A stretch of 54,279 bases of DNA, taken from Candidatus Thorarchaeota archaeon (lineage in GTDB: Archaea; Asgardarchaeota; Thorarchaeia; Thorarchaeales; Thorarchaeaceae). The notes under the pieces are model-generated. The model saw nothing but the letters and a program-made list of their open reading frames with translations. It made no database searches and was not told the DNA's origin. Positions within the stretch are counted from its first letter, which is position 1, and every line of letters begins with the position of its first letter. The position numbers and the translations under genes were made by a program. Of this stretch, positions 1,625-39,239 are shown one piece after another. Where the stretch lies: contig JAWAQK010000009.1 in NCBI GenBank assembly GCA_038893995.1, positions 1-54,279 on the forward strand. Direction: 5' to 3'.

Positions 1625-2347
1625 CTACACCGACTCACCGCGGGCAATCATGAGAGTGCGCTGAATTACTCCAGGCCTACCAAGACCTGCACCTGCAACT
1701 AGGAGCAGTCTACTGCTGTCGAGGCGTGCCACCAGAACAGTCATGTTCTCTGAACCCATGATAAGATGATCCGTCTGCTCCGAGAAGGTAATACCATTCG
1801 CAAACGCAGAACCCGCAAGCGCAGCCACCTCAATATCATCCGGTAGATTCAGGGAACTCAGAGGGAGCCCGTCTGCTGTGAGCACCATCACATGTTCGGC
1901 CTCAGGTATCCTCTGAGATATGAGCGTTGCCAAGTCTCTCTGAACAGGCCCTATCTGCGAACATACAATTTCCTGGACTCGCTCCGCAAGCGTGTGCAAC
2001 CTCGCAACATACGACATCATCTCGACGCCGGGCGGGGAAGCTCTGGTGTCAAGTAAGAACACCAGGTAGCAGTCTGGTTCCAGCAGTACTACGAGCGATT
2101 CCTGATGGTTGACGAGCAATATGTGGTTGGGCCCCTTTTTCCCGAGATGCAACAACAGACTGCTGGCCGCCCACGCGGTCGCAGCAGAGACCGTAGCTAT
2201 GGGCCTGGGGTCAATCTCGGTGTCACGGTGGATCGCAGTGATGACTATCCCTTCCCGATTGCACAGCAGCACCCTGGTAATGCCAGGATACGTAATCATG
2301 GCTTCGCGCAACAGACTCGATACTTCTGCGATAGGACCAGCAGCCAT
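1625..2347 (-). CDS. Protein with two tandem Roadblock/LC7 domains
   Basis: Two repeats of the roadblock pattern: YPGITRVLLCNREGIVITA...IATVSAA and IPEAEHVMVLTADGLPLSS...VAALAGSAF. Confidence 0.8.
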   Translation of the reverse strand: MAAGPIAEVSSLLREAMITYPGITRVLLCNREGIVITAIHRDTEIDPRPIATVSAATAWAASSLLLHLGKKGPNHILLVNHQESLVVLLEPDCYLVFLLDTRASPPGVEMMSYVARLHTLAERVQEIVCSQIGPVQRDLATLISQRIPEAEHVMVLTADGLPLSSLNLPDDIEVAALAGSAFANGITFSEQTDHLIMGSENMTVLVARLDSSRLLLVAGAGLGRPGVIQRTLMIARGESV

Positions 2348-2497
2348 AGTTCAAGGTGGGACATGACGGACTTTTAAGCATTTGACAAGCAGGGAGGCGG
2401 GGGCTCGAGTTCATCGTATCTCCCCATGCGAACGCGATGAACGACATCTTTAAATCAAGCATTCAGCGACCTCACCCAACGCACTGGAGGCAGCATA

Positions 2498-3589
2498 GTG
2501 AGCTCGAGAAGGAGCATACTCGGTTCAATCTTGATAGTTTCTGTCCTGTTTGCCGGAGTCACGGGGATGGTTGTCATCTCCAATCAGTACGATCCCCCCA
2601 GGCTTGCGGTCTTCGTGACGGGTGTCGGACTGGAAGACTATGGCTTTGCCGCCCAGACTGAATCGGGCATCAAGATGGCCCAGAAGGAAACGACCCTTTA
2701 CTATGATGTGTTCGTTACTACTCCCGCACAGGCAGTGCAAATGATGAAGGATGTCTCGGGACAGGAGCGGTACGAGCTTGTGATCGCCATAGGTAATGAT
2801 CTCGCGACAGCCGTAAGCACGGTAGCCCAACTCTATCCAAGACAGAAATTTGCGTTGATTGGAGGAAATGCAACCGAGGCCACAAATGTCTTCTCAGCAT
2901 ACTTCGCTGTTGAACAGGCTGCGTATCTCTCAGGAATTGTAGCGGCACACCTGGTAGCTCAGAGCGGGTACACAAGAGTGATCGGCATTCTGGCGTCGTT
3001 TCAGACAGACCCCGAGATCAGCAAGATCGTGACTGCCTTCAAGAACGGAGTCACGAGGGCAAATACGACATACGGTCTCAATGTCAGGTTTGGACCGGAG
3101 ACCTATCTCCAGAGCACAAGGGACACGACGATGGCCCAATTCTACGCCTATCAGATGTTCACCACACAGAATGTTTCCCTGATATTCGCACCCGTCCGGG
3201 CCAGTCTACCTGGAGTCAGGACAGCAATGGAGAATGCCAGGGCATACTTCCAGACTCACGGACAGCCGAACCGGTTGCCTCTCGTCATCGCAGAGGGAAT
3301 GAATCATGAGATATATGGCCTGCCCAACCCTAGTGTCCTGACAGGCCAGACCTGGATACCGACGAGTGTGGTGACAGCTGCCAATAACGTCACGAATATG
3401 ATAGTAAGCGCCACACTCTGGAACGAATTCATGAGTGGCACATTCGTCTATGGACTCTCGAATTCAGGGGTTGGAATCACGCCATTCGTGTACAGCACGA
3501 CATACATTCAGAACCTACAATTGTTGATGGAGAGGATCAATGAGCACAAGCAAGCGATCATCAATGGTCTGATCGATCCGCTTGCCTAG
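2498..3589 (+). CDS. BMP (basic membrane protein, PnrA/Med-like) substrate-binding protein with N-terminal membrane anchor
   Basis: GLEDYGF...ESGI, YELVIAIG, VAQLYPRQKFALI and FAVEQAAYLSGIVAA motifs; hydrophobic N-terminus. Confidence 0.82.
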   Translation: MSSRRSILGSILIVSVLFAGVTGMVVISNQYDPPRLAVFVTGVGLEDYGFAAQTESGIKMAQKETTLYYDVFVTTPAQAVQMMKDVSGQERYELVIAIGNDLATAVSTVAQLYPRQKFALIGGNATEATNVFSAYFAVEQAAYLSGIVAAHLVAQSGYTRVIGILASFQTDPEISKIVTAFKNGVTRANTTYGLNVRFGPETYLQSTRDTTMAQFYAYQMFTTQNVSLIFAPVRASLPGVRTAMENARAYFQTHGQPNRLPLVIAEGMNHEIYGLPNPSVLTGQTWIPTSVVTAANNVTNMIVSATLWNEFMSGTFVYGLSNSGVGITPFVYSTTYIQNLQLLMERINEHKQAIINGLIDPLA

Positions 3590-3606
3590 CCAATGCAACA
3601 ACCAAG

Positions 3607-4212
3607 ATGGGCAATGAAATGCAAGAAACCCCCGCAGGGCCTGAAGGCGCCAGCCTGGAAGAGTTGACGAGGCTGTGTGAGCGGTCGCAGCTGCTAAAGA
3701 GCATCCAGCGAGCAGGCTGGAGAGTGGCGACTGCAATGGAGGGGCTGGAGTCCGTTGCAGACCATTGCTGGGGGGTAGCGCTCGTATCCATGCTACTCGT
3801 GCGTCAGCTACAGGCCAGTGGTCATCATGTAGATATGGCAAAGACCCTCCAGATGGCCATCCTACACGATCTGTCCGAGAGCGTCATCTCAGACATTCCA
3901 CATAGCGCACTTCAGAGAAGTGACCATCTCCTCCGAATGAAGAGGGAGGCAGAAAGAGCCGCCAACGAGAGGCTACTGCATCAATATGAAGACCTGCTGA
4001 AATTGGTAGAGGAGTACTCTGAACGAGAGACACTCGAGTCTCGGATTGTCGCGGCGGCAGACTTGCTGGACCTCTTGCTGTACGCCAGAAGACTTGAGAG
4101 GTCAGGCGTGCCACACGAGAGTCTTGCTGAGTTCTACAGTTCTGTCGCCGAAGAGGTCGCAGACCTTGACATCGAGATCGTTTCACAGATCGTCAGGCTC
4201 ATCGTCCGTTGA
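3607..4212 (+). CDS. HD-domain 5'-deoxynucleotidase (YfbR/HDDC2-like)
   Basis: LKSIQRAGW, ESVADH, MAILHDLSESVISDIP and ESRIVAAADLLD motifs. Confidence 0.9.
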   Translation: MGNEMQETPAGPEGASLEELTRLCERSQLLKSIQRAGWRVATAMEGLESVADHCWGVALVSMLLVRQLQASGHHVDMAKTLQMAILHDLSESVISDIPHSALQRSDHLLRMKREAERAANERLLHQYEDLLKLVEEYSERETLESRIVAAADLLDLLLYARRLERSGVPHESLAEFYSSVAEEVADLDIEIVSQIVRLIVR

Positions 4213-4848
4213 CGCTGGTTCCAGAAGCCACGGAAAGTCCCGTCTGATCCCTGCTGCGAATTGACGTGCAAGTCTTATCGGCTCGGGTATTCGTCCCTCA
4301 ATGACGAACATGTTGATCACATGTCGGGCGGTGTCACGGTCCATACCAACCACGTTGAGGTACACAGAGTGACCTGTCCTAATCGGAACAAGAATTCTCT
4401 CTCCATTACGACGGATGATCTCCGCCCTTTGATGCCAGTCAGTCGGGAAATATTCTCGAAGATAGTCGTCAACACCGTCAGACGAAGAATAGGAAACGCA
4501 GATCACAGGCATGCCCGATTCTGCGTGTAGTCGGTTCAGGTCAACGACATTGAACCATGACACGATGCTGCCCCCGAGCATCCACGCTCGGACATCGGGC
4601 CTGTTGAGTCGACCAGACATCTGTAGGAGCTCATCTGTGATGTCCATTCCACCGACTCTGGGCCTGCAGAACCCTACTCCGTCGATGCGAAGGTCGCTTC
4701 TCATGACAACTCCCGCAACTATGCTCCGTCCAGCGCTCGGTGAGAAGCTCTCTGCAACACCAAGAACCCTTGCTCCTCTCTTCCAAGACCGGGTCACGGA
4801 ACATACGCCTGGTTCGGTCAGATTCAATCGTTCAACCACAGGGCACAC
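4183..4848 (-). CDS. DUF99 family protein (endonuclease V-like / endonuclease dU)
   Basis: RVLGVAESF, GVVMRSDLRIDG, VGGMDIT, LGGSIVSWFNVVD and GRIPEPIRLA motifs. True start uncertain. Confidence 0.88.
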   Translation of the reverse strand: MCPVVERLNLTEPGVCSVTRSWKRGARVLGVAESFSPSAGRSIVAGVVMRSDLRIDGVGFCRPRVGGMDITDELLQMSGRLNRPDVRAWMLGGSIVSWFNVVDLNRLHAESGMPVICVSYSSSDGVDDYLREYFPTDWHQRAEIIRRNGERILVPIRTGHSVYLNVVGMDRDTARHVINMFVIEGRIPEPIRLARQFAAGIRRDFPWLLEPASTDDEPDDL

Positions 4849-26351: not shown

Positions 26352-28526
26352 TCAGATCCAGTCGCCAGTCTCAAGTTTCCTCGGGATGTACTCATCTGTC
26401 AGGTACTCAAAACTGTGGCTGGCAAACGCCTGTATCTCAGCCTTTTCCTTGATCTTCAGCATCAGCTCAAGGTCTTCGACCCATCTACGGTTGCTTGCGA
26501 CGAACGGCTCTTTCAGCATGTCCTTCACTCGCTTGATGTCAGCGGGTTCCATCGGTATCCTGACGGCCTTCGGGACATTGTACTCGTCCAGGTCTCTTGA
26601 CAAGACACCGAGAAGCTTGAGCTCGGGCGTTGCTATGAATGGAGACTCATAGCTTAGACGTTTGCTACCTCTCAGAAAGACTGAGTAGATGTAGTGTCCG
26701 TATGGGTCAGAGTCCACCAGTGCAAACGCTGGTATCTCCAGTTCCTTCACCAGCCGCTTCAGGAAGGCCCTAGTGGCCATGTCTCCTGAACCCTTACCGG
26801 TTATCACGATGCAGGGTTGCCTATTCCAGTAACGTGCTTCAGCCAGTCTCATGACAGCAGCGTCCTTCTCAGAGAGTATGATGAATTCCGCATCGCTCTC
26901 GACAATCTCCACCTGATCCAAGAAGGGCGTGATGGCCCATCCTCCGGTACCCATCTTCGTGAGATCGATCAGGTCACCTGCGTCGCGAATCACGACTCGT
27001 CCCATTGCGGAGCCTCTGGCCGCGGCCACAACATGGATACTGTCTCGAGTGGTCTGGAGCATTGAGGCGACATCCTCGATGATCTTGTCACTGTATTTCT
27101 GGTCTCGGAAGAGATTGACGTCGCTGTAGTACACCTCTCGTTTTGTTGCGTGGAGACCTGCACGAAGCAGATCGAAGACGATCTCCATCACTCGTGCAGT
27201 CCTGGTGGCGTCGACAACGGATGCCAGAGAGTGGTACGGTCGCGAGATGGTCTTGAGACCGAGCAACAACAGGTCACGGACCTCGTCCCACACTATGTTA
27301 TCGCTTGACCTGCTTGGAATCTCGAAGGCAGGTCGCCCTGTTGTCATGGACTCATTGAGTATCTCGACGGCAACATCCACCAACCTGTCTATGGTCTCGT
27401 CTCGCCCGAGGTTGACGACCTCGTAAGTGGCGACTGTCTGTGACTTCTGGCTCTGCTCTTCAGCACGTGCCCACTGCTCCTTCATCTTGGCTGCCAGGTC
27501 TAGGACTGGCTGCGGAACTGGGAGATTCGACTTGTACCTTCTGGGCTTCTTCCTATCGGCTGATTTCTTCTTGGTCTCTGCAAACCTGACCTTTCGGACC
27601 GGCGTCGGTGCCGTTGTCTGTTGTGTAGTAGTCTCCTTCCCTGTCTTTTCCATAGGCGGCTCCTCTGTCTTCTCTGGTCTCTTTGTTGTCTTCTTCTCAG
27701 GAGTCGGTCTTGACTCAGTGACTTCTGAGGGGGAACTCTCGGTCACCCTCTGAAGTTCCCGCTGCTGAATGATCTTCTTGGCCGCGTCGACAATCTCGGC
27801 AGCCTTTTGAACGCTTAGCCCATCGATGGCCTGTGCAAGACCCTGTGGTCGTGCACGGGAGAGTCTCTCAGCGGAGTCGTAACCGGCTGATGCAAGTCTG
27901 ATTGCAAGTTTGGGACCAACACCTCTGATGCTCTCGAGAGACGCAAGCTGATCTGCGGCTCCACCGGCATCCTCACTCTCGACGGCGCCCTGTAGCATCT
28001 CTCTTGCAGAGCTGATGATACGCCTTGCACCCTCGACGCTTATTCCCTCCACTCTCCGACTCAGCGCCTCAGGACGGGCCCGGGAAATCTGTTCTACAGT
28101 CGTGTATCCGGACGAGACCAGCCGCTCGCGAAGACGATCTCCCACACCCGGTAACTGTCTCATAAGAGGATCCTCTGGTGGCGGTGTCTCTGTTTTCGCC
28201 TTGCTGGGCATGGGTTTCTCCTGTTTCCTTGCTGCAGGGGGTTCCTTCGGTGATTGTACTCTCTTTGGTCTCGAGACGCCCCTTGGGGCCATGCCTGTCT
28301 CATTCTGCCTCTTACCGCTCTTCTTGGCCGTGGTCGCTGACTTGGAGCTGCTTCCGCTCTCCTTCGCTGGCTTCTTACTCTCAGACGTCTTCTTGTCACG
28401 ACTATCACTTTCGGTACTGTGGCCAGATACCTCCTCTCGCTGCGCCTTACTGGGGGTCTTACCTCTCGAATCGACAAGTGTTGACTGGACTGTCGTTTCG
28501 TCTGCAGGTCTCTTCTTCTTACTCAT
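26352..28526 (-). CDS. top6A: DNA topoisomerase VI subunit A (Spo11 homologue) with long N-terminal extension bearing two HhH domains
   Basis: TKREVYY (catalytic Tyr), toprim SEKDA, ITGKG, VDSDPYG and KAEIQA; overlaps the top6B stop (ATGA). Confidence 0.95.
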   Translation of the reverse strand: MSKKKRPADETTVQSTLVDSRGKTPSKAQREEVSGHSTESDSRDKKTSESKKPAKESGSSSKSATTAKKSGKRQNETGMAPRGVSRPKRVQSPKEPPAARKQEKPMPSKAKTETPPPEDPLMRQLPGVGDRLRERLVSSGYTTVEQISRARPEALSRRVEGISVEGARRIISSAREMLQGAVESEDAGGAADQLASLESIRGVGPKLAIRLASAGYDSAERLSRARPQGLAQAIDGLSVQKAAEIVDAAKKIIQQRELQRVTESSPSEVTESRPTPEKKTTKRPEKTEEPPMEKTGKETTTQQTTAPTPVRKVRFAETKKKSADRKKPRRYKSNLPVPQPVLDLAAKMKEQWARAEEQSQKSQTVATYEVVNLGRDETIDRLVDVAVEILNESMTTGRPAFEIPSRSSDNIVWDEVRDLLLLGLKTISRPYHSLASVVDATRTARVMEIVFDLLRAGLHATKREVYYSDVNLFRDQKYSDKIIEDVASMLQTTRDSIHVVAAARGSAMGRVVIRDAGDLIDLTKMGTGGWAITPFLDQVEIVESDAEFIILSEKDAAVMRLAEARYWNRQPCIVITGKGSGDMATRAFLKRLVKELEIPAFALVDSDPYGHYIYSVFLRGSKRLSYESPFIATPELKLLGVLSRDLDEYNVPKAVRIPMEPADIKRVKDMLKEPFVASNRRWVEDLELMLKIKEKAEIQAFASHSFEYLTDEYIPRKLETGDWI

Positions 28527-30562
28527 TCGAGGCCTCCCTCTTCATCGACCAAGAAGGACTCGTCCTCCGGACTTGCCTCAACATCCTCCTGTTCTGCCTC
28601 TTCCTCATCCTCAACCTGCTCAAAGCCGGTGATTGCATCCCGTATCTTCGATGCAACTGTTTCTGCGTCAAATACCTTCTTCTGCTTGGATGTGTTGACT
28701 ATCTTGGTCAGACTCTCTGCAAACTGGTCTGCGTACATGGCCAGAATGCCGGCCCTCTTTGCCTTCCTGCGTGCGGTCTCTCGACGTGTTATGTATCGTC
28801 TGAACTTCCTACCGACATCCTCAAGTGCGAGCTTTATCTCGCGAATGAGCACTTCATCCTCTGCTAGTGCCTGCTTGCTCTGGCCCTTGAACATGACATG
28901 CACATATGCACCGCAGACGTGAATGAAGAGCATCACGGGACCGCGAGGAATACCGTTCTCGAATGTGTCAATCTTGTAGTTCTTCCAGTTGACCATTGTG
29001 GTGGCCTTCCAGGTCGCACAGTCACTGTTGTCTCGGAGCTTGGGCACACGATTGACGAACCTCCACAGGACAAATGGCGCCGAAGTCGCAGGCTTGATCT
29101 CGCCCCCATAGGCCACACACACTTCGACCGCGAATGACAATCCCTTGCCGGACGTTGGTTTTCGGGTGACAGCGGCTACGAAGTCAGGCTTGTAGGCCTT
29201 TCTTATAGTATCTTCGAAGACCTCCTCTCCAACTGGGACAACGGTGTCAGTAGGTGGTGCAATGTATTCCTCGCTGGCAAAGTACTTGTAGAGCAGCTCC
29301 ACCTCTACCTGCGAAAGGGAGTCTGTGGGCGTCCTGAGGCTTATCTTGCCCAGTCGCCTTCTCGCAAGCTCTGCATTAGTGGCTTCAATGATCGCCTCCG
29401 CCTTGCTGAGGCTCATGCGACAGAAGGCGCGTGTCAGGAACCCCCCTAGGGTGCGCTCGGGGCTCTCACGCAAGAGGTCCTGGAACTCGCCGATGCGGAT
29501 ACTGGCAGGATGGGGCTGAGCGTACTTGGGCTCCTCTGGGAAGACACCCACACGCCTCGGATGGATATGCACTTCGCCATAGGGATCGATGAAGATTATG
29601 GTCACGTGTGAGTTGAGTAGCGAGGCCATCTCACAGTATGTGTCAGCATATCCCCTCTTGTACTGGATATTCAGGTAGTTCAGCCTGACGTACGTCCCAT
29701 GATCGAAGGGCAGATCCATGTCGATAGGACCATTCACATACTCCTTCGTATTTGCGGTTGTCGTGTAGAACTCTGCCACAGTTGCAAGCTGAGAGGTGAA
29801 TCTCTTCGTGACTGCAAATATGGGCTTTCCAGTCGTATTCTGAGCGTCACTGAATGCAGAGGGCGCACCGAATCCCTGACTGCCTCGGGTCTGTCTGAGC
29901 TTTTCCGACTTACTTGAGGCAAGGTATATACCATACTTCTCGAGATCAGCAGGGACCATTCCCACACCATTGTCAAAACATACAAACTCGTATACCTTGA
30001 AACCCTCTGGGTCATTGATAGGTACCAGATCTGGCATCTGTACCTCTGTGAGCTGTATTGCTACGAATGGCTCGTCCTTCTTGATGAGCGTCCTGAATGG
30101 TGTGATGAACTTCCTGAATCGCTTCAGCCTCTCCTCGAGGTCCTCCTTTGGTGCTGGGGGGATAGTGACGGGTTTACCCTCCGAGAGATCCTTCTCGAGC
30201 TGCTTCCCGATGGCGATGGAGTCGGGCAACTGGCCGATCTTCTCTCGTATCTCAGCAACTACCTCAGGCTCTAGCTGGTCGCTGAGCTTACGGCGCTTCT
30301 TGTTCTTCCACCAATAGCTCTCAAGTGCGTCTATTGCATTGTCAAGGAATTCTATTGCATACTGGGTGTGCTTGTTGAGACCAATCTCGAAGCCGACCAG
30401 TTGAGTCCTTTTCCTCATGAACTTGGCTATGGTGCCCTCTCTGATGTCGCCCTCTACTCGCTTGGCTTCGCTGATACCCGATCCGTCACGACCCAATGAA
30501 TCACACTTCCTTGTCTCTCGGCAGACTTCTCCAGCAAAGATAGTCCGAGGCTGGAGGGCCAC
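28523..30562 (-). CDS. top6B: DNA topoisomerase VI subunit B
   Basis: GHKL motifs EFLDNAIDA, DNGVG, QTRGSQGFG and GT; transducer RFVNRVP and SKQA. The true start is probably later (e.g. TTG 30496). Confidence 0.94.
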   Translation of the reverse strand: MALQPRTIFAGEVCRETRKCDSLGRDGSGISEAKRVEGDIREGTIAKFMRKRTQLVGFEIGLNKHTQYAIEFLDNAIDALESYWWKNKKRRKLSDQLEPEVVAEIREKIGQLPDSIAIGKQLEKDLSEGKPVTIPPAPKEDLEERLKRFRKFITPFRTLIKKDEPFVAIQLTEVQMPDLVPINDPEGFKVYEFVCFDNGVGMVPADLEKYGIYLASSKSEKLRQTRGSQGFGAPSAFSDAQNTTGKPIFAVTKRFTSQLATVAEFYTTTANTKEYVNGPIDMDLPFDHGTYVRLNYLNIQYKRGYADTYCEMASLLNSHVTIIFIDPYGEVHIHPRRVGVFPEEPKYAQPHPASIRIGEFQDLLRESPERTLGGFLTRAFCRMSLSKAEAIIEATNAELARRRLGKISLRTPTDSLSQVEVELLYKYFASEEYIAPPTDTVVPVGEEVFEDTIRKAYKPDFVAAVTRKPTSGKGLSFAVEVCVAYGGEIKPATSAPFVLWRFVNRVPKLRDNSDCATWKATTMVNWKNYKIDTFENGIPRGPVMLFIHVCGAYVHVMFKGQSKQALAEDEVLIREIKLALEDVGRKFRRYITRRETARRKAKRAGILAMYADQFAESLTKIVNTSKQKKVFDAETVASKIRDAITGFEQVEDEEEAEQEDVEASPEDESFLVDEEGGLE

Positions 30563-38150: not shown

Positions 38151-39239
38151 ATGGCGTTGATGGAGGTTTCTATCATACCCGCCAAGAAGAAACAAGTTGA
38201 CGATTCAGAATACTCGGAAGAGGATATTGATTACGAGGACTTTGAGAGAGAGCCTAGCGAAGTGAGTGACGAAACAACCGAGGCCGGCGAGACAGGAATA
38301 TCTGGGATTGATGTCACAGACCTGCCTGGTGTGGGGCCAGCCATTGGAAAACGGCTTGCAGAGGCAGGATACAGAAGCATCGAGGCAATTGCTGTCGCCT
38401 CTCCCGCAGAGCTAGCAGCAGCCGGTTCGATAGGTGAGTCCACAGCAACTAAGATCATCAAGGCAGCGCGAGAGATGCTCGATATAGGGTTCGAGACGGC
38501 AGACCAGCTTCTCGAACGTCGCAGGGTTGCAGGCCGTATCACGACTGGTTCCAAGAAACTGGATGAGCTCTTCGGTGGTGGTATCGAAACTCAGTCAATC
38601 ACCGAGGTCTACGGTCAGTTCAGGTCTGGGAAGACTCAGCTTGCTCACCAGCTTGCCGTCAACGTGCAGCTACCTCCAGAACGCGGAGGGCTCAGCGGCA
38701 CTGCAATATACGTGGACACGGAAGGTACCTTTAGGCCTGAGAGATTGGTGGACATGGCAATTGGCGTGGGGCTTGACCCAGCCAAGGTACTCAAGAACGT
38801 CGTCTGGGCCAGGGCATACAACTCGGACCATCAGATCTTGTTATGTGACCAGGCGATGGAGATGGCACAGGAGCGCAATGCAAGGCTGCTCGTGGTCGAC
38901 TCCATAACAGGCCACTTCAGGGCTGAATACACGGGCAGGGGGACACTGGCACCGAGACAACAGAAGCTCAACAAGCACCTTCACCACCTGCAGAGGGCGG
39001 CGGAGATCAATAACATGGCAGTCTACATTACCAACCAGGTCATGTCGAAGCCAGACACCTTCTTTGGGGACCCAACGTCTCCGGCTGGGGGACACATCCT
39101 TGCCCATGTTCCACAGACGAGGTGTTACCTCAGGAAGGCAAAGGGAGAGACTCGCATCTGTAGACTGGTTGACTCACCGAACCTACCCGAGGGGGAGGCA
39201 GTGTTCACGGTCCTCAAAGAGGGAATCAGAGATGTCTGA
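38151..39239 (+). CDS. radA: DNA repair and recombination protein RadA
   Basis: N-terminal HhH domain, FxxA (GFETA), Walker [26 protein letters not shown] and RLVDSP. Confidence 0.97.

What the first reader, a model, noticed from the sequence alone, without database searches (positions are those of the whole stretch)
27770..28166. Topo VI-A/Spo11 homologue fused to two RadA/Rad51-N-like HhH domains
Seen: Top6A is 724 aa, about twice the usual size. Its extension has two repeats, LRQLPGVG-like LMRQLPGVGDRLRERLVSSGYTTVEQISRARPEALS...GARRIISSARE and LESIRGVGPKLAIRLASAGYDSAERLSRARPQGLA...KAAEIVDAAKK. Both align by eye with the N-domain of this window's RadA ([35 protein letters not shown]...[11 protein letters not shown]). 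Known: Top6A is the ancestor of meiotic Spo11, and (HhH)2 domains bind DNA non-specifically, as in Topo V. Inference: added DNA-binding/processivity modules, or an interface linking a break-forming enzyme to the recombinase. This HhH type also occurs in unrelated proteins, so a RadA origin is not proven.
Basis: partly seen in the sequence, partly recalled or inferred. Interest (0 to 1): 0.75.

Follow-up and report, generated by a model that had tools for sequence, protein, structure and literature searches.

The report
Thorarchaeal topoisomerase VI with HhH arm
In this Asgard archaeon (Thorarchaeota) the DNA-cutting subunit of topoisomerase VI carries a long, positively charged, mostly disordered N-terminal arm with two small helix-hairpin-helix domains and a clamp-docking-like tip, which most likely holds the enzyme on DNA and shows no special tie to the RadA recombinase.

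Summary
The ORF at 26352-28526 (-) encodes a 724-aa Top6A. Residues 121-252 (27770-28166) hold two HHH_5 (HhH)2 units, 40% identical to each other and 38-40% to this window's RadA N-domain.

The arm is coding and constrained:
- Its ATG overlaps the top6B stop.
- dN/dS of the units is 0.03-0.18.
- A tip motif, [VI]Q.TL, lies about 12 residues after the start in nearly all relatives.

All 24 same-family genomes searched, and every evaluable one of 71 further Thorarchaeota loci, carry the arm with 2 to 7 units. The sister family and the other Asgard families searched lack it. Only two 50%-identity clusters among 1.84 billion representatives share the design.

RadA is not the closest relative of the units. 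The same module is also fused to Rpo6, eL32, a HEAT protein and a membrane protein in this lineage, and those copies score higher.

The arm is strongly basic (about +26). The models show two folded units on disordered linkers, and a predicted complex puts the tip in the PCNA PIP pocket. My reading is a non-specific DNA tether, perhaps clamp-linked, on an otherwise intact topoisomerase.

I found no paper that describes it. This scan had already noted the same design in five other Thorarchaeota genomes.

The parts
28523..30562 (-). top6B (679 aa as listed from a GTG; the true start is uncertain), Asgard-type B subunit with an acidic C-terminal tail
   Evidence: NCBIfam PRK04184 scores 340.8 bits against a cut-off of 274, and Pfam finds the Topo-VIb transducer at 436-602. 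The GHKL motifs EFLDNAIDA, DNGVGM and GSQGFG can be read in the translation. Its stop overlaps the top6A ATG (ATGA).
26352..28526 (-). top6A, 724 aa, whole gene including the stop codon
28473..28496 (-). PIP-like tip motif, residues 11-18 (TTVQSTLV). Q14, T16 and L17 are conserved in the family. Positions +6 and +7 are S and R here, but aliphatic in most relatives.
   Evidence: Q14, T16 and L17 are invariant in A1. The motif [VI]Q.TL lies about 12 residues after the start in 56 of 58 distinct relatives. The predicted complex places residues 11-18 against PCNA residues 40, 43-47, 127, 227 and 243-250.
28173..28526 (-). Basic tail 1, residues 1-118, rich in K, S, T and P, net charge +14, predicted disordered
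   Evidence: Charge count. pLDDT is 34-46 over residues 1-113. dN/dS is mostly 0.1-0.3.
27987..28172 (-). (HhH)2 unit 1, residues 119-180
   Evidence: Pfam HHH_5. The AF2 model gives five helices with pLDDT 93-97. dN/dS of the units is 0.03-0.18.
27951..27986 (-). Acidic inter-unit linker, residues 181-192, disordered
   Evidence: pLDDT below 50 at 184-191. Net charge -4.
27765..27950 (-). (HhH)2 unit 2, residues 193-254
   Evidence: Pfam HHH_5, and NCBIfam RadA models hit 195-260. pLDDT is 96-98.
27537..27764 (-). Basic tail 2, residues 255-330, net charge +9, predicted disordered
27402..27536 (-). Conserved pre-core segment, residues 331-375, with helix 339-359. S333, V337, W352, A355 and E356 are invariant in A1.
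26355..27401 (-). Canonical Top6A core, residues 376-724 (winged-helix/5Y-CAP and Toprim). R463, Y467, E553, D605 and D607 are conserved.
   Evidence: invariant columns. The best solved match is S. shibatae 2zbk_A, E 1.9e-59.
38151..39239 (+). radA of the window (comparison only, not part of the system). Its HHH_5 N-domain is at residues 54-108.
   Evidence: Pfam Rad51 E 1.8e-95 and HHH_5 at 54-108.

Best explanation
This is the conserved, eukaryote-related Asgard copy of topoisomerase VI, an A2B2 type IIB enzyme with an intact ATPase subunit and intact cleavage residues. In the Thorarchaeota family its A subunit has gained a roughly 375-residue N-terminal arm.

The arm has four parts. A short PIP-like tip comes first, then a lysine-rich disordered tail. 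Two positively charged (HhH)2 domains on flexible linkers follow, and a second basic tail joins them to the core.

I infer that the arm binds duplex DNA without sequence preference and so keeps the enzyme on the chromosome. That would raise its local concentration, its processivity or its chance of capturing a second duplex, much as the (HhH)2 array does for topoisomerase V. The tip probably docks on the PCNA sliding clamp and would bring the enzyme to replication forks.

Shown: the architecture, its conservation, the purifying selection, the charge, the predicted fold and the confinement to one family. Inferred: DNA binding, the tethering effect and clamp docking.
For: Architecture
- HHH_5 occurs twice ahead of a full Top6A core.
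- The AF2 models show two confident five-helix units (pLDDT 93-98) between disordered segments 1-113, 184-191 and 265-320.

The arm is translated and constrained
- The top6A ATG overlaps the top6B stop here.
- The overlap is 4 nt in 27 of 60 loci and 1 nt in 13.
- The tip motif lies about 12 residues after the start in 56 of 58 distinct relatives.
- dN/dS is 0.03-0.18 for the units, mostly 0.1-0.4 for the tails and 0.01-0.03 for the core.

Distribution
- All 24 same-family genomes have long frames.
- The related loci carry 2, 3, 4, 5 or 7 units.
- The sister family (420-aa Top6A) and the other Asgard families searched lack the arm.
- Only 2 clusters among 1.84 billion representatives share the design.

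Charge
- The arm is about +26 here and the core -10.
- The family median for the arm is +40.5. Top6A units average +3.6, against -1.3 for RadA N-domains and -3.7 for Rpo6 modules.

Fold relatives that bind DNA
- Topo V (HhH)2, PolX, LigA and the RadA N-domain appear in both the sequence and the fold searches.
- Engineered HhH fusions raise the salt tolerance and performance of a DNA polymerase (PMC8313265, by title and abstract).

Clamp docking
- The predicted complex of this genome's PCNA with Top6A residues 1-45 scored 0.70, against a best of 3 controls of 0.00.
- That mark was reached by 58 of 80 solved complexes and 2 of 110 mismatched pairs.
- The runs agree in at least 65% of their contacts, and the partner's pLDDT is at least 47.
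- The contacts are Top6A 11-18 with PCNA 40, 43-47, 127, 227 and 243-250.
- Many PIP-PCNA complexes are solved, so this pass may only reflect likeness to them.

The enzyme is intact
- R463, Y467, E553, D605 and D607 are invariant.
- Top6B scores above the NCBIfam cut-off.
Against: No DNA-binding or activity measurement exists, so the function is inferred from fold, charge and analogy.

The second hairpin of each unit reads G-[LI]-S, not the classic G-h-G. HHH_5-type domains such as NusA AR1/AR2 bind proteins, and these were the top Foldseek matches for the tandem.

The same module sits on Rpo6, eL32, a HEAT protein and a membrane protein. That would also fit a shared protein or RNA partner.

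The PIP-like motif lacks the aromatic pair. In this genome positions +6 and +7 are S and R, so clamp binding may be weak or lost here.

The genome also has a second, arm-less topoisomerase VI, so the arm is not needed for type IIB activity as such.
Confidence: 0.65

Rival explanations
1. The HhH units are protein-protein adaptors, as NusA AR2 is for the RNA polymerase alpha-CTD. They would join Top6A to a partner that is shared with the other Thorarchaeota proteins carrying the same module (Rpo6, eL32, HEAT protein, membrane protein), or to those proteins themselves.
For: The best Foldseek matches for the tandem are NusA AR1-AR2 (E 2.6e-4), and single units fit NusA AR2 at 1.1-1.2 A. The module is fused to functionally unrelated proteins in the lineage. 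The second hairpin is degenerate (G-[LI]-S).
Against: NusA AR domains are acidic (known from the literature, not measured here). Top6A units are basic, +3.6 on average, and sit within strongly basic tails. Unit number varies from 2 to 7, which suits avidity for a polymer such as DNA better than a one-to-one partner. Most of the carriers are nucleic-acid enzymes.
Confidence: 0.15
2. The arm links the break-forming enzyme to the RadA recombinase, giving a Spo11-like coupling of cleavage and strand exchange.
For: The units are 38-40% identical to the window's RadA N-domain. In nine related loci radA lies about 2.7 kb downstream of top6A.
Against: RadA is the least similar of the Thorarchaeota modules to the Top6A unit profile (38 bits, against 44-67 for Rpo6, eL32 and the membrane protein; own-genome ranking). 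RadA N-domains have a one-residue deletion that the Top6A units lack. No FxxA motif or RecA core follows the units. In this window radA lies 9.6 kb away on the other strand. Top6B is an intact ATPase, so the enzyme is a strand-passage topoisomerase. The (HhH)2 domain of RadA/Rad51 is known as a DNA-binding element, not as a RadA-binding one (established knowledge).
Confidence: 0.05
3. The arm acts mainly as a histone-H1-like chromatin or condensate element. The basic disordered tails would drive nucleoid association or phase separation, and the HhH units would be secondary.
For: Tails 1 and 2 carry +23 of the +26 net charge of the arm here and are predicted disordered. The family median arm charge is +40.5.
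Against: The units are under much stronger constraint than the tails (dN/dS 0.03-0.18 against 0.1-0.4), and they were multiplied up to seven-fold in some lineages. Selection therefore acts on the folded modules. This rival overlaps the best explanation, since both tether the enzyme to DNA.
Confidence: 0.1
4. The extension is an annotation artefact, and translation starts near the core.
Against: The frame is open in every evaluable relative. dN/dS is well below 1 throughout the arm. A conserved motif follows the start codon directly, and that codon overlaps the top6B stop.
Confidence: 0.02

Closest known systems
Canonical archaeal topoisomerase VI A subunit (S. shibatae 2zbk_A, 389 aa; M. jannaschii 1d3y; M. 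mazei 2q2e/9o0g)
   Same: Residues 376-724 match end to end (E 1.9e-59 to 2zbk_A). The catalytic Tyr/Arg and the Toprim E and DxD residues are conserved. The gene sits in an operon with top6B.
   Different: The solved enzymes have no N-terminal arm. This protein adds about 375 residues: a PIP-like tip, two basic disordered tails and two (HhH)2 domains.
Conserved Asgard-type Top6A, sister of eukaryotic Top6A/Spo11 (Nat Ecol Evol 2025, PMC12680538)
   Same: Orthologues at 40-63% core identity occur in 13 of 14 Asgard families searched. A diatom Top6A is the fourth-best representative (44% identity, E 5.7e-98). The genome also holds the divergent second copy that the paper describes.
   Different: The paper's main text does not mention HhH domains. 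The arm exists only in the Thorarchaeota family. The sister family and the other Asgard families searched have 397-479-aa frames.
Methanopyrus kandleri topoisomerase V (type IC) with 12 tandem (HhH)2 domains
   Same: A topoisomerase is fused to a variable tandem array of (HhH)2 domains. Unit 1 aligns to Topo V residues 611-683 (E 1.7e-6), and Topo V appears among the fold matches.
   Different: The catalytic fold and the mechanism are unrelated (type IC against type IIB). In Topo V the array is C-terminal, has 12 contiguous domains and carries lyase sites. Here 2-7 units lie N-terminal on long disordered basic linkers with a PIP-like tip.
RadA/Rad51 N-terminal domain
   Same: Same Pfam family (HHH_5), 38-40% identity and rmsd 0.8-0.9 A over 56 residues.
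   Different: No polymerisation motif or ATPase core follows. RadA N-domains have a one-residue deletion and a net negative charge. They are not the nearest relative of the Top6A units.
Haloarchaeal eL32 with an N-terminal HhH domain (e.g. 1s72_Y, 9l94_Q)
   Same: An HHH_5 module is appended to a housekeeping nucleic-acid protein. Thorarchaeota eL32 carries 2-4 such units.
   Different: The carrier protein is different. It shows that the module is a mobile appendage and not specific to Top6A.

Membership tests
Topoisomerase VI subunit A (Top6A/Spo11 family) | Winged-helix/5Y-CAP domain with the catalytic tyrosine | tested here: met
   Pfam TP6A_N at 441-499, E 3.4e-20. R463 and Y467 are invariant in 61 sequences.
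Topoisomerase VI subunit A (Top6A/Spo11 family) | Toprim domain with the acidic metal-binding residues (E, DxD) | tested here: met
   PF21180 at 548-718, E 1.1e-53. E553, D605 and D607 are invariant.
Topoisomerase VI subunit A (Top6A/Spo11 family) | Partner Top6B with a GHKL ATPase and transducer, making a true topoisomerase and not a Spo11-type nuclease | tested here: met
   The adjacent, overlapping top6B scores 340.8 bits against NCBIfam PRK04184 (cut-off 274). The GHKL N, G1 and G2 boxes can be read in the sequence. ATPase activity is not testable here.
(HhH)2 domain, Pfam HHH_5 | Two helix-hairpin-helix motifs joined by a connector helix, forming a five-helix pseudo-symmetric bundle | tested here: met
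   HHH_5 occurs twice. AF2 gives five helices per unit at pLDDT 93-98. Foldseek matches RadA NTD and NusA AR2 at about 1 A.
(HhH)2 domain, Pfam HHH_5 | G-h-G hairpins that contact the DNA backbone | tested here: inconclusive
   The first hairpin, PGVG-x-K, is conserved in both units. The second hairpin reads G-[LI]-S. DNA binding itself cannot be tested with these tools.
RadA/Rad51 N-terminal domain (as a specific origin or partner) | Followed by an FxxA polymerisation motif and a RecA-type ATPase core | tested here: not met
   No Rad51/RecA domain in P0001. No conserved FxxA after either unit.
RadA/Rad51 N-terminal domain (as a specific origin or partner) | Closer to RadA N-domains than to other HHH_5 modules of the same lineage | tested here: not met
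   Own-genome ranking: Rpo6 module 2.4e-12, membrane protein 1.1e-8, RadA 5.6e-6. Unit-profile scores: RadA 38 bits against 44-67 for the others. RadA has a specific one-residue deletion. The domain tree is unresolved.
PIP box (PCNA-interacting peptide) | Q-x-x-[LIVM]-x-x-[FYW]-[FYW] at a protein terminus, flanked by basic residues | tested here: inconclusive
   Q14 and L17 are invariant, the position is terminal and a KKK flank is present. The aromatic pair is replaced by aliphatic residues in most relatives and by S and R here.
PIP box (PCNA-interacting peptide) | Docks in the hydrophobic pocket under the interdomain connector loop and zips to the PCNA C-terminus | tested here: met
   This is a prediction only. 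Score 0.70 against a best of 3 controls of 0.00. The mark was reached by 58 of 80 solved complexes and 2 of 110 mismatched pairs. Runs agree in at least 65% of contacts, and the partner's pLDDT is at least 47. Contacts are Top6A 11-18 with PCNA 40, 43-47, 127, 227 and 243-250. The pass may come from likeness to solved PIP-PCNA complexes.
Topoisomerase V-type (HhH)2 array | Type IC topoisomerase domain followed by 12 contiguous (HhH)2 domains | tested here: not met
   The catalytic core is type IIB. There are 2 units here and 2-7 in relatives, all N-terminal and separated by disordered linkers. The likeness is in design only.

The most novel reading that the evidence does not exclude
The arm makes this the first type IIB topoisomerase that is physically tied to the replisome. 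The N-terminal PIP-like tip would dock on PCNA, while the (HhH)2 modules (2 to 7, by lineage) hold the flanking duplex. Decatenation and relaxation would then take place directly at forks. Together with the HhH modules on Rpo6, eL32 and a membrane protein, this would mark a Thorarchaeota-wide habit of tethering core machines to nucleic acid through one mobile domain.
Probability: 0.3. Interest if true: 0.7.

Novelty: new variant of a known kind. Interest (0 to 1): 0.5.

Why it matters
Topoisomerase VI is the archaeal relative of plant Top6 and of the meiotic nuclease Spo11. The copy studied here is the Asgard lineage closest to the eukaryotic genes. Solved Topo VI enzymes engage DNA only through their cores and through elements of the B subunit.

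A family-wide arm on the A subunit, under selection and variable in unit number, with (HhH)2 modules and a clamp-docking-like tip, would be a new way to tune a type IIB enzyme. It is a natural counterpart of the topoisomerase V array and of engineered HhH fusions. It can be tested directly by comparing enzyme with and without the arm.

It also corrects a tempting over-reading. The fusion is a derived Thorarchaeota trait built from a promiscuous module, so it is not evidence for an ancestral Spo11-Rad51 link. Public records name these proteins only 'hypothetical protein' or 'SPO11'.

Tried and rejected
- Domain tree of 104 HHH_5 units (FastTree). The last unit of the array, the one next to the core, forms one group. 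The first-unit type and the extra units form another. RadA N-domains sit on a long branch inside the multi-unit cluster. With 60 residues and no support values I draw no origin from it.
- Between-group identities are all 0.30-0.40, so identity alone cannot name a donor.
- Two loci seemed to lack units. L069 has a run of N just upstream of the core, and L073 starts 56 nt before the frame at a contig edge. Neither is evidence of absence.
- The long open frames at the Top6A of G030 and G040 (1109 and 859 aa) are top6B and top6A read through. The A subunit there is 441 aa with no arm.
- Other long Top6A representatives carry inteins (P0029) or N-extensions with no Pfam match (P0120, P0124, P0081) and no HhH.
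- The supplements of PMC12680538 are not held.
- Five literature searches (and reading) found no description of the fusion. Subscription journals are not covered.
- I did not test RadA against the arm with complex prediction. The single job went to PCNA, the more plausible partner.
Full report
**1. What is in the sequence**

The ORF at 26352..28526 on the minus strand encodes 724 residues. Its ATG overlaps the stop of the upstream gene in the sequence ATGA. The upstream gene (28523..30562) is Top6B: NCBIfam PRK04184 scores 340.8 bits against a cut-off of 274, and Pfam finds the transducer domain.

In the 724-aa protein, Pfam finds TP6A_N at 441-499 and the Top6A Toprim domain at 548-718. It also finds two HHH_5 domains, with best stretch 123-176 and whole-protein E 1.7e-20. 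NCBIfam Top6A models cover only residues 376-724. The next best models are RadA models that hit the two repeats.

The repeats are 40% identical to each other (E 4e-16). Each is 38-40% identical to the N-domain of the RadA encoded at 38151..39239.

**2. Organism and which copy this is**

The titles of 71 related loci name Candidatus Thorarchaeota, an Asgard group.

The genome holds a second topoisomerase VI operon of ordinary size on another contig, with Top6B at 504 aa and Top6A at 364 aa (about 30% identity).

The copy with the arm has orthologues at 40-63% core identity in 13 of 14 other Asgard families searched. A diatom Top6A is its fourth-best hit among 1.84 billion representatives (44% identity, E 5.7e-98). 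This fits the conserved, eukaryote-related Asgard Top6A of PMC12680538, which also reports extra copies in Thorarchaeia. That paper's main text does not mention HhH domains.

**3. The arm is real, translated and under selection**

- All 24 same-family genomes have long open frames at this gene.
- In the related loci the tip motif [VI]Q.TL lies about 12 residues after a start codon in 56 of 58 distinct sequences.
- That start codon overlaps the top6B stop by 4 nt in 27 of 60 loci and by 1 nt in 13.
- Nei-Gojobori dN/dS between moderately diverged pairs is 0.03-0.18 for the HhH units, mostly 0.1-0.4 for the tails and 0.01-0.03 for the core.

**4. Distribution**

Most relatives have two units. 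Some have three (L009, L076), four (L048, L050, L056, L057, L064, L070), five (L049) or seven (L061, 954-aa frame). Two apparent exceptions are an assembly gap and a contig edge.

The one genome from the sister family of the same order has Top6B of 700 aa and Top6A of 420 aa, with no HhH and no tip motif. The other Asgard families searched have Top6A frames of 397-479 aa; in G030 and G040 the longer frames are two genes, and the A subunit is 441 aa.

An exhaustive HMMER search of 1.84 billion representatives found only two clusters with HhH plus Top6A: P0012 with 4 units and P0013 with 7 units. Other long forms carry inteins or N-extensions with no Pfam match. The tip motif is absent from Top6A representatives outside the Thorarchaeota. 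The whole arm is therefore an innovation of this one family.

**5. Anatomy of the arm**

| Residues | Element | Net charge | Model |
|---|---|---|---|
| 1-118 | Tail 1, rich in K, S, T and P; tip motif at 11-18 | +14 | disordered (pLDDT about 35) |
| 119-180 | (HhH)2 unit 1 | +3 | five helices, pLDDT 93-97 |
| 181-192 | Acidic linker | -4 | disordered |
| 193-254 | (HhH)2 unit 2 | +3 | five helices, pLDDT 96-98 |
| 255-330 | Tail 2 | +9 | disordered |
| 331-375 | Conserved pre-core segment, helix 339-359 | +1 | confident |
| 376-724 | Core | -10 | pLDDT above 90 |

The charge counts are and the models. Across the family the arm has a median net charge of +40.5. Top6A units average +3.6, against -1.3 for RadA N-domains, -3.7 for Rpo6 modules and -1.1 for eL32 modules.

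**6. What the units resemble**

By sequence against solved structures, the matches are:
- PolX (E 1e-6)
- topoisomerase V residues 611-683 (1.7e-6)
- P. furiosus RadA (1e-4)
- NusA
- Hel308/Hjm
- other RadA entries
- eL32

By fold, the tandem matches NusA AR1-AR2 and Topo V. Single units fit RadA N-domains at 0.8-0.9 A over 56 residues and NusA AR2 at 1.1-1.2 A. 'RadA-N-like' is therefore right at the level of family and fold, but it is not specific to RadA.

**7. Relation to RadA**

Within this genome the nearest relatives of the units rank as follows:

| Carrier | E-value |
|---|---|
| HHH_5 module at the N-terminus of Rpo6/Rpb6 | 2.4e-12 |
| C-terminal module of a 538-aa membrane protein | 1.1e-8 |
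| RadA | 5.6e-6 |

In relatives the same module also precedes eL32 (2-4 units), a HEAT-repeat protein and a 576-aa protein. Against a profile built from the Top6A units these modules score 44-67 bits, and RadA scores 38.

RadA N-domains share a one-residue deletion that 96% of the other modules, the Top6A units included, lack. Between-group identities are all 0.30-0.40, and the 60-residue tree is unresolved. The donor cannot be named, but nothing singles out RadA.

No FxxA motif or RecA core follows the units. radA lies about 2.7 kb downstream of top6A in nine related loci. In this window it is 9.6 kb away on the other strand. Related genomes share inherited gene order, so this is weak evidence for a functional link.

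**8. The tip**

I had already seen the invariant Q14, T16 and L17. Notes from earlier work in this scan on other genomes called the tip clamp-docking-like, so I tested that idea.

I took this genome's PCNA (contig 5, 251 aa) as an alignment of 18 sequences, and Top6A residues 1-45 as an alignment of 30. The predicted complex passed:
- Score 0.70, against a best of 3 controls of 0.00.
- That mark was reached by 58 of 80 solved complexes and 2 of 110 mismatched pairs.
- The runs agree in at least 65% of their contacts, and the partner's pLDDT is at least 47.
- Top6A residues 11-18 lie against PCNA residues 40, 43-47, 127, 227 and 243-250, which is the canonical PIP site.

Many PIP-PCNA complexes are solved, so the pass shows likeness to them and does not show binding. 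The motif also lacks the aromatic pair. In this genome positions +6 and +7 are S and R, where most relatives have aliphatic residues.

**9. Mechanism**

The enzyme keeps its catalytic residues (R463, Y467, E553, D605 and D607 are invariant) and an intact B subunit. It is a working strand-passage topoisomerase.

The most likely role of the arm is a flexible, non-specific DNA tether that raises residence time or processivity, or helps capture a second duplex. Two precedents make this plausible: the (HhH)2 array of topoisomerase V (PMC3592480) and engineered HhH fusions that improve a polymerase (PMC8313265). Recruitment to the clamp is a probable addition.

I put the tether at about 0.65 and, within it, clamp docking at about 0.4. 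The rivals are a protein-adaptor role (0.15), a mainly tail-driven chromatin role (0.1), RadA coupling (0.05) and an artefact (0.02).

**10. Novelty**

I found no paper describing the fusion. Public records call these proteins 'hypothetical protein' or 'SPO11'.

This scan had already reported the same design in five other Thorarchaeota genomes, and large HhH arrays on Top6B in Heimdall-group genomes. I did not test the Heimdall claim.

It is a new variant of a known enzyme and not a new kind of system.

Noticed in passing
L086:2051-4619 (G000 contig 52): A second topoisomerase VI operon of ordinary size in the same genome: Top6B 504 aa (3105-4619, -) and Top6A 364 aa (2051-3145, -), about 30% identical to the arm-bearing copy. 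Pfam confirms both.
   Followed up: partly
L088:1450-2148 (G000 contig 43): RNA polymerase subunit Rpo6/Rpb6 (232 aa) has an acidic N-terminal tail and one HHH_5 module ahead of the Rpb6 domain. Five relatives have the same layout (L095, L096, L098-L100). It is the closest in-genome relative of the Top6A units.
   Followed up: partly
L106-L108, L110-L112 (relatives G023, G009, G006, G001, G016, G012): Ribosomal protein eL32 of related Thorarchaeota carries 2 to 4 N-terminal HHH_5 units (344-453-aa frames). No such eL32 was found in G000 with this query.
   Followed up: partly
L089:1480-3096 (-) (G000 contig 38): A 538-aa multi-pass membrane protein ends in a basic HHH_5 module. It is conserved in relatives (L101-L104, L109) and could be a membrane anchor for DNA.
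   Followed up: no
L094:988-1671, L097, L105:232-1959 (-): A HEAT-repeat protein of about 225 aa and a 576-aa protein with no other Pfam domain each begin with one HHH_5 module in relatives.
   Followed up: no
window 28523-28620 (-), and the Top6B C-termini of L002-L015: Top6B ends in a strongly acidic tail. In many relatives the tail holds a conserved motif [ST]DL[VI]AD[IV]PL. Here it is degenerate (SFLVDEE). It might pair with the basic arm of Top6A or with another partner.
   Followed up: no
window 30070-30320 (-), about Top6B residues 83-165: This Top6B has an insertion of roughly 85 residues between the GHKL N box (EFLDNAIDA) and the G1 box (DNGVGM). The sister-family Top6B (L084:1103-3205) has it too. 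Pfam sees the ATPase fold only weakly.
   Followed up: no
L015:8551-9624 and eight other loci (L021, L026, L033, L038, L066, L077-L079): radA (82% identical to the window's) lies about 2.7 kb downstream of top6A on the same strand in nine related loci. In this window it is 9.6 kb away on the opposite strand.
   Followed up: partly
window 38151-38310 (+): The window's RadA has an acidic N-terminal stretch of about 50 residues ([16 protein letters not shown]...) ahead of its HhH domain. The L015 orthologue has it too.
   Followed up: no
P0014 (461 aa), P0021 (470 aa): Two Top6A representatives outside the Thorarchaeota have N-terminal regions of about 110 residues that look ubiquitin-like by eye. 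Pfam finds nothing there, and this was not checked by folding.
   Followed up: no
P0029 and about ten other representatives of 767-947 aa: These Top6A proteins are split by an intein (Intein_splicing plus LAGLIDADG) inside the Toprim domain. That accounts for most other 'long' Top6A forms.
   Followed up: partly
L069:3700-3860: A 'complete' Thorarchaeota chromosome (CP070658.1) has a run of N exactly where the repeat-bearing arm of top6A should be. The repeats probably broke the assembly.
   Followed up: partly
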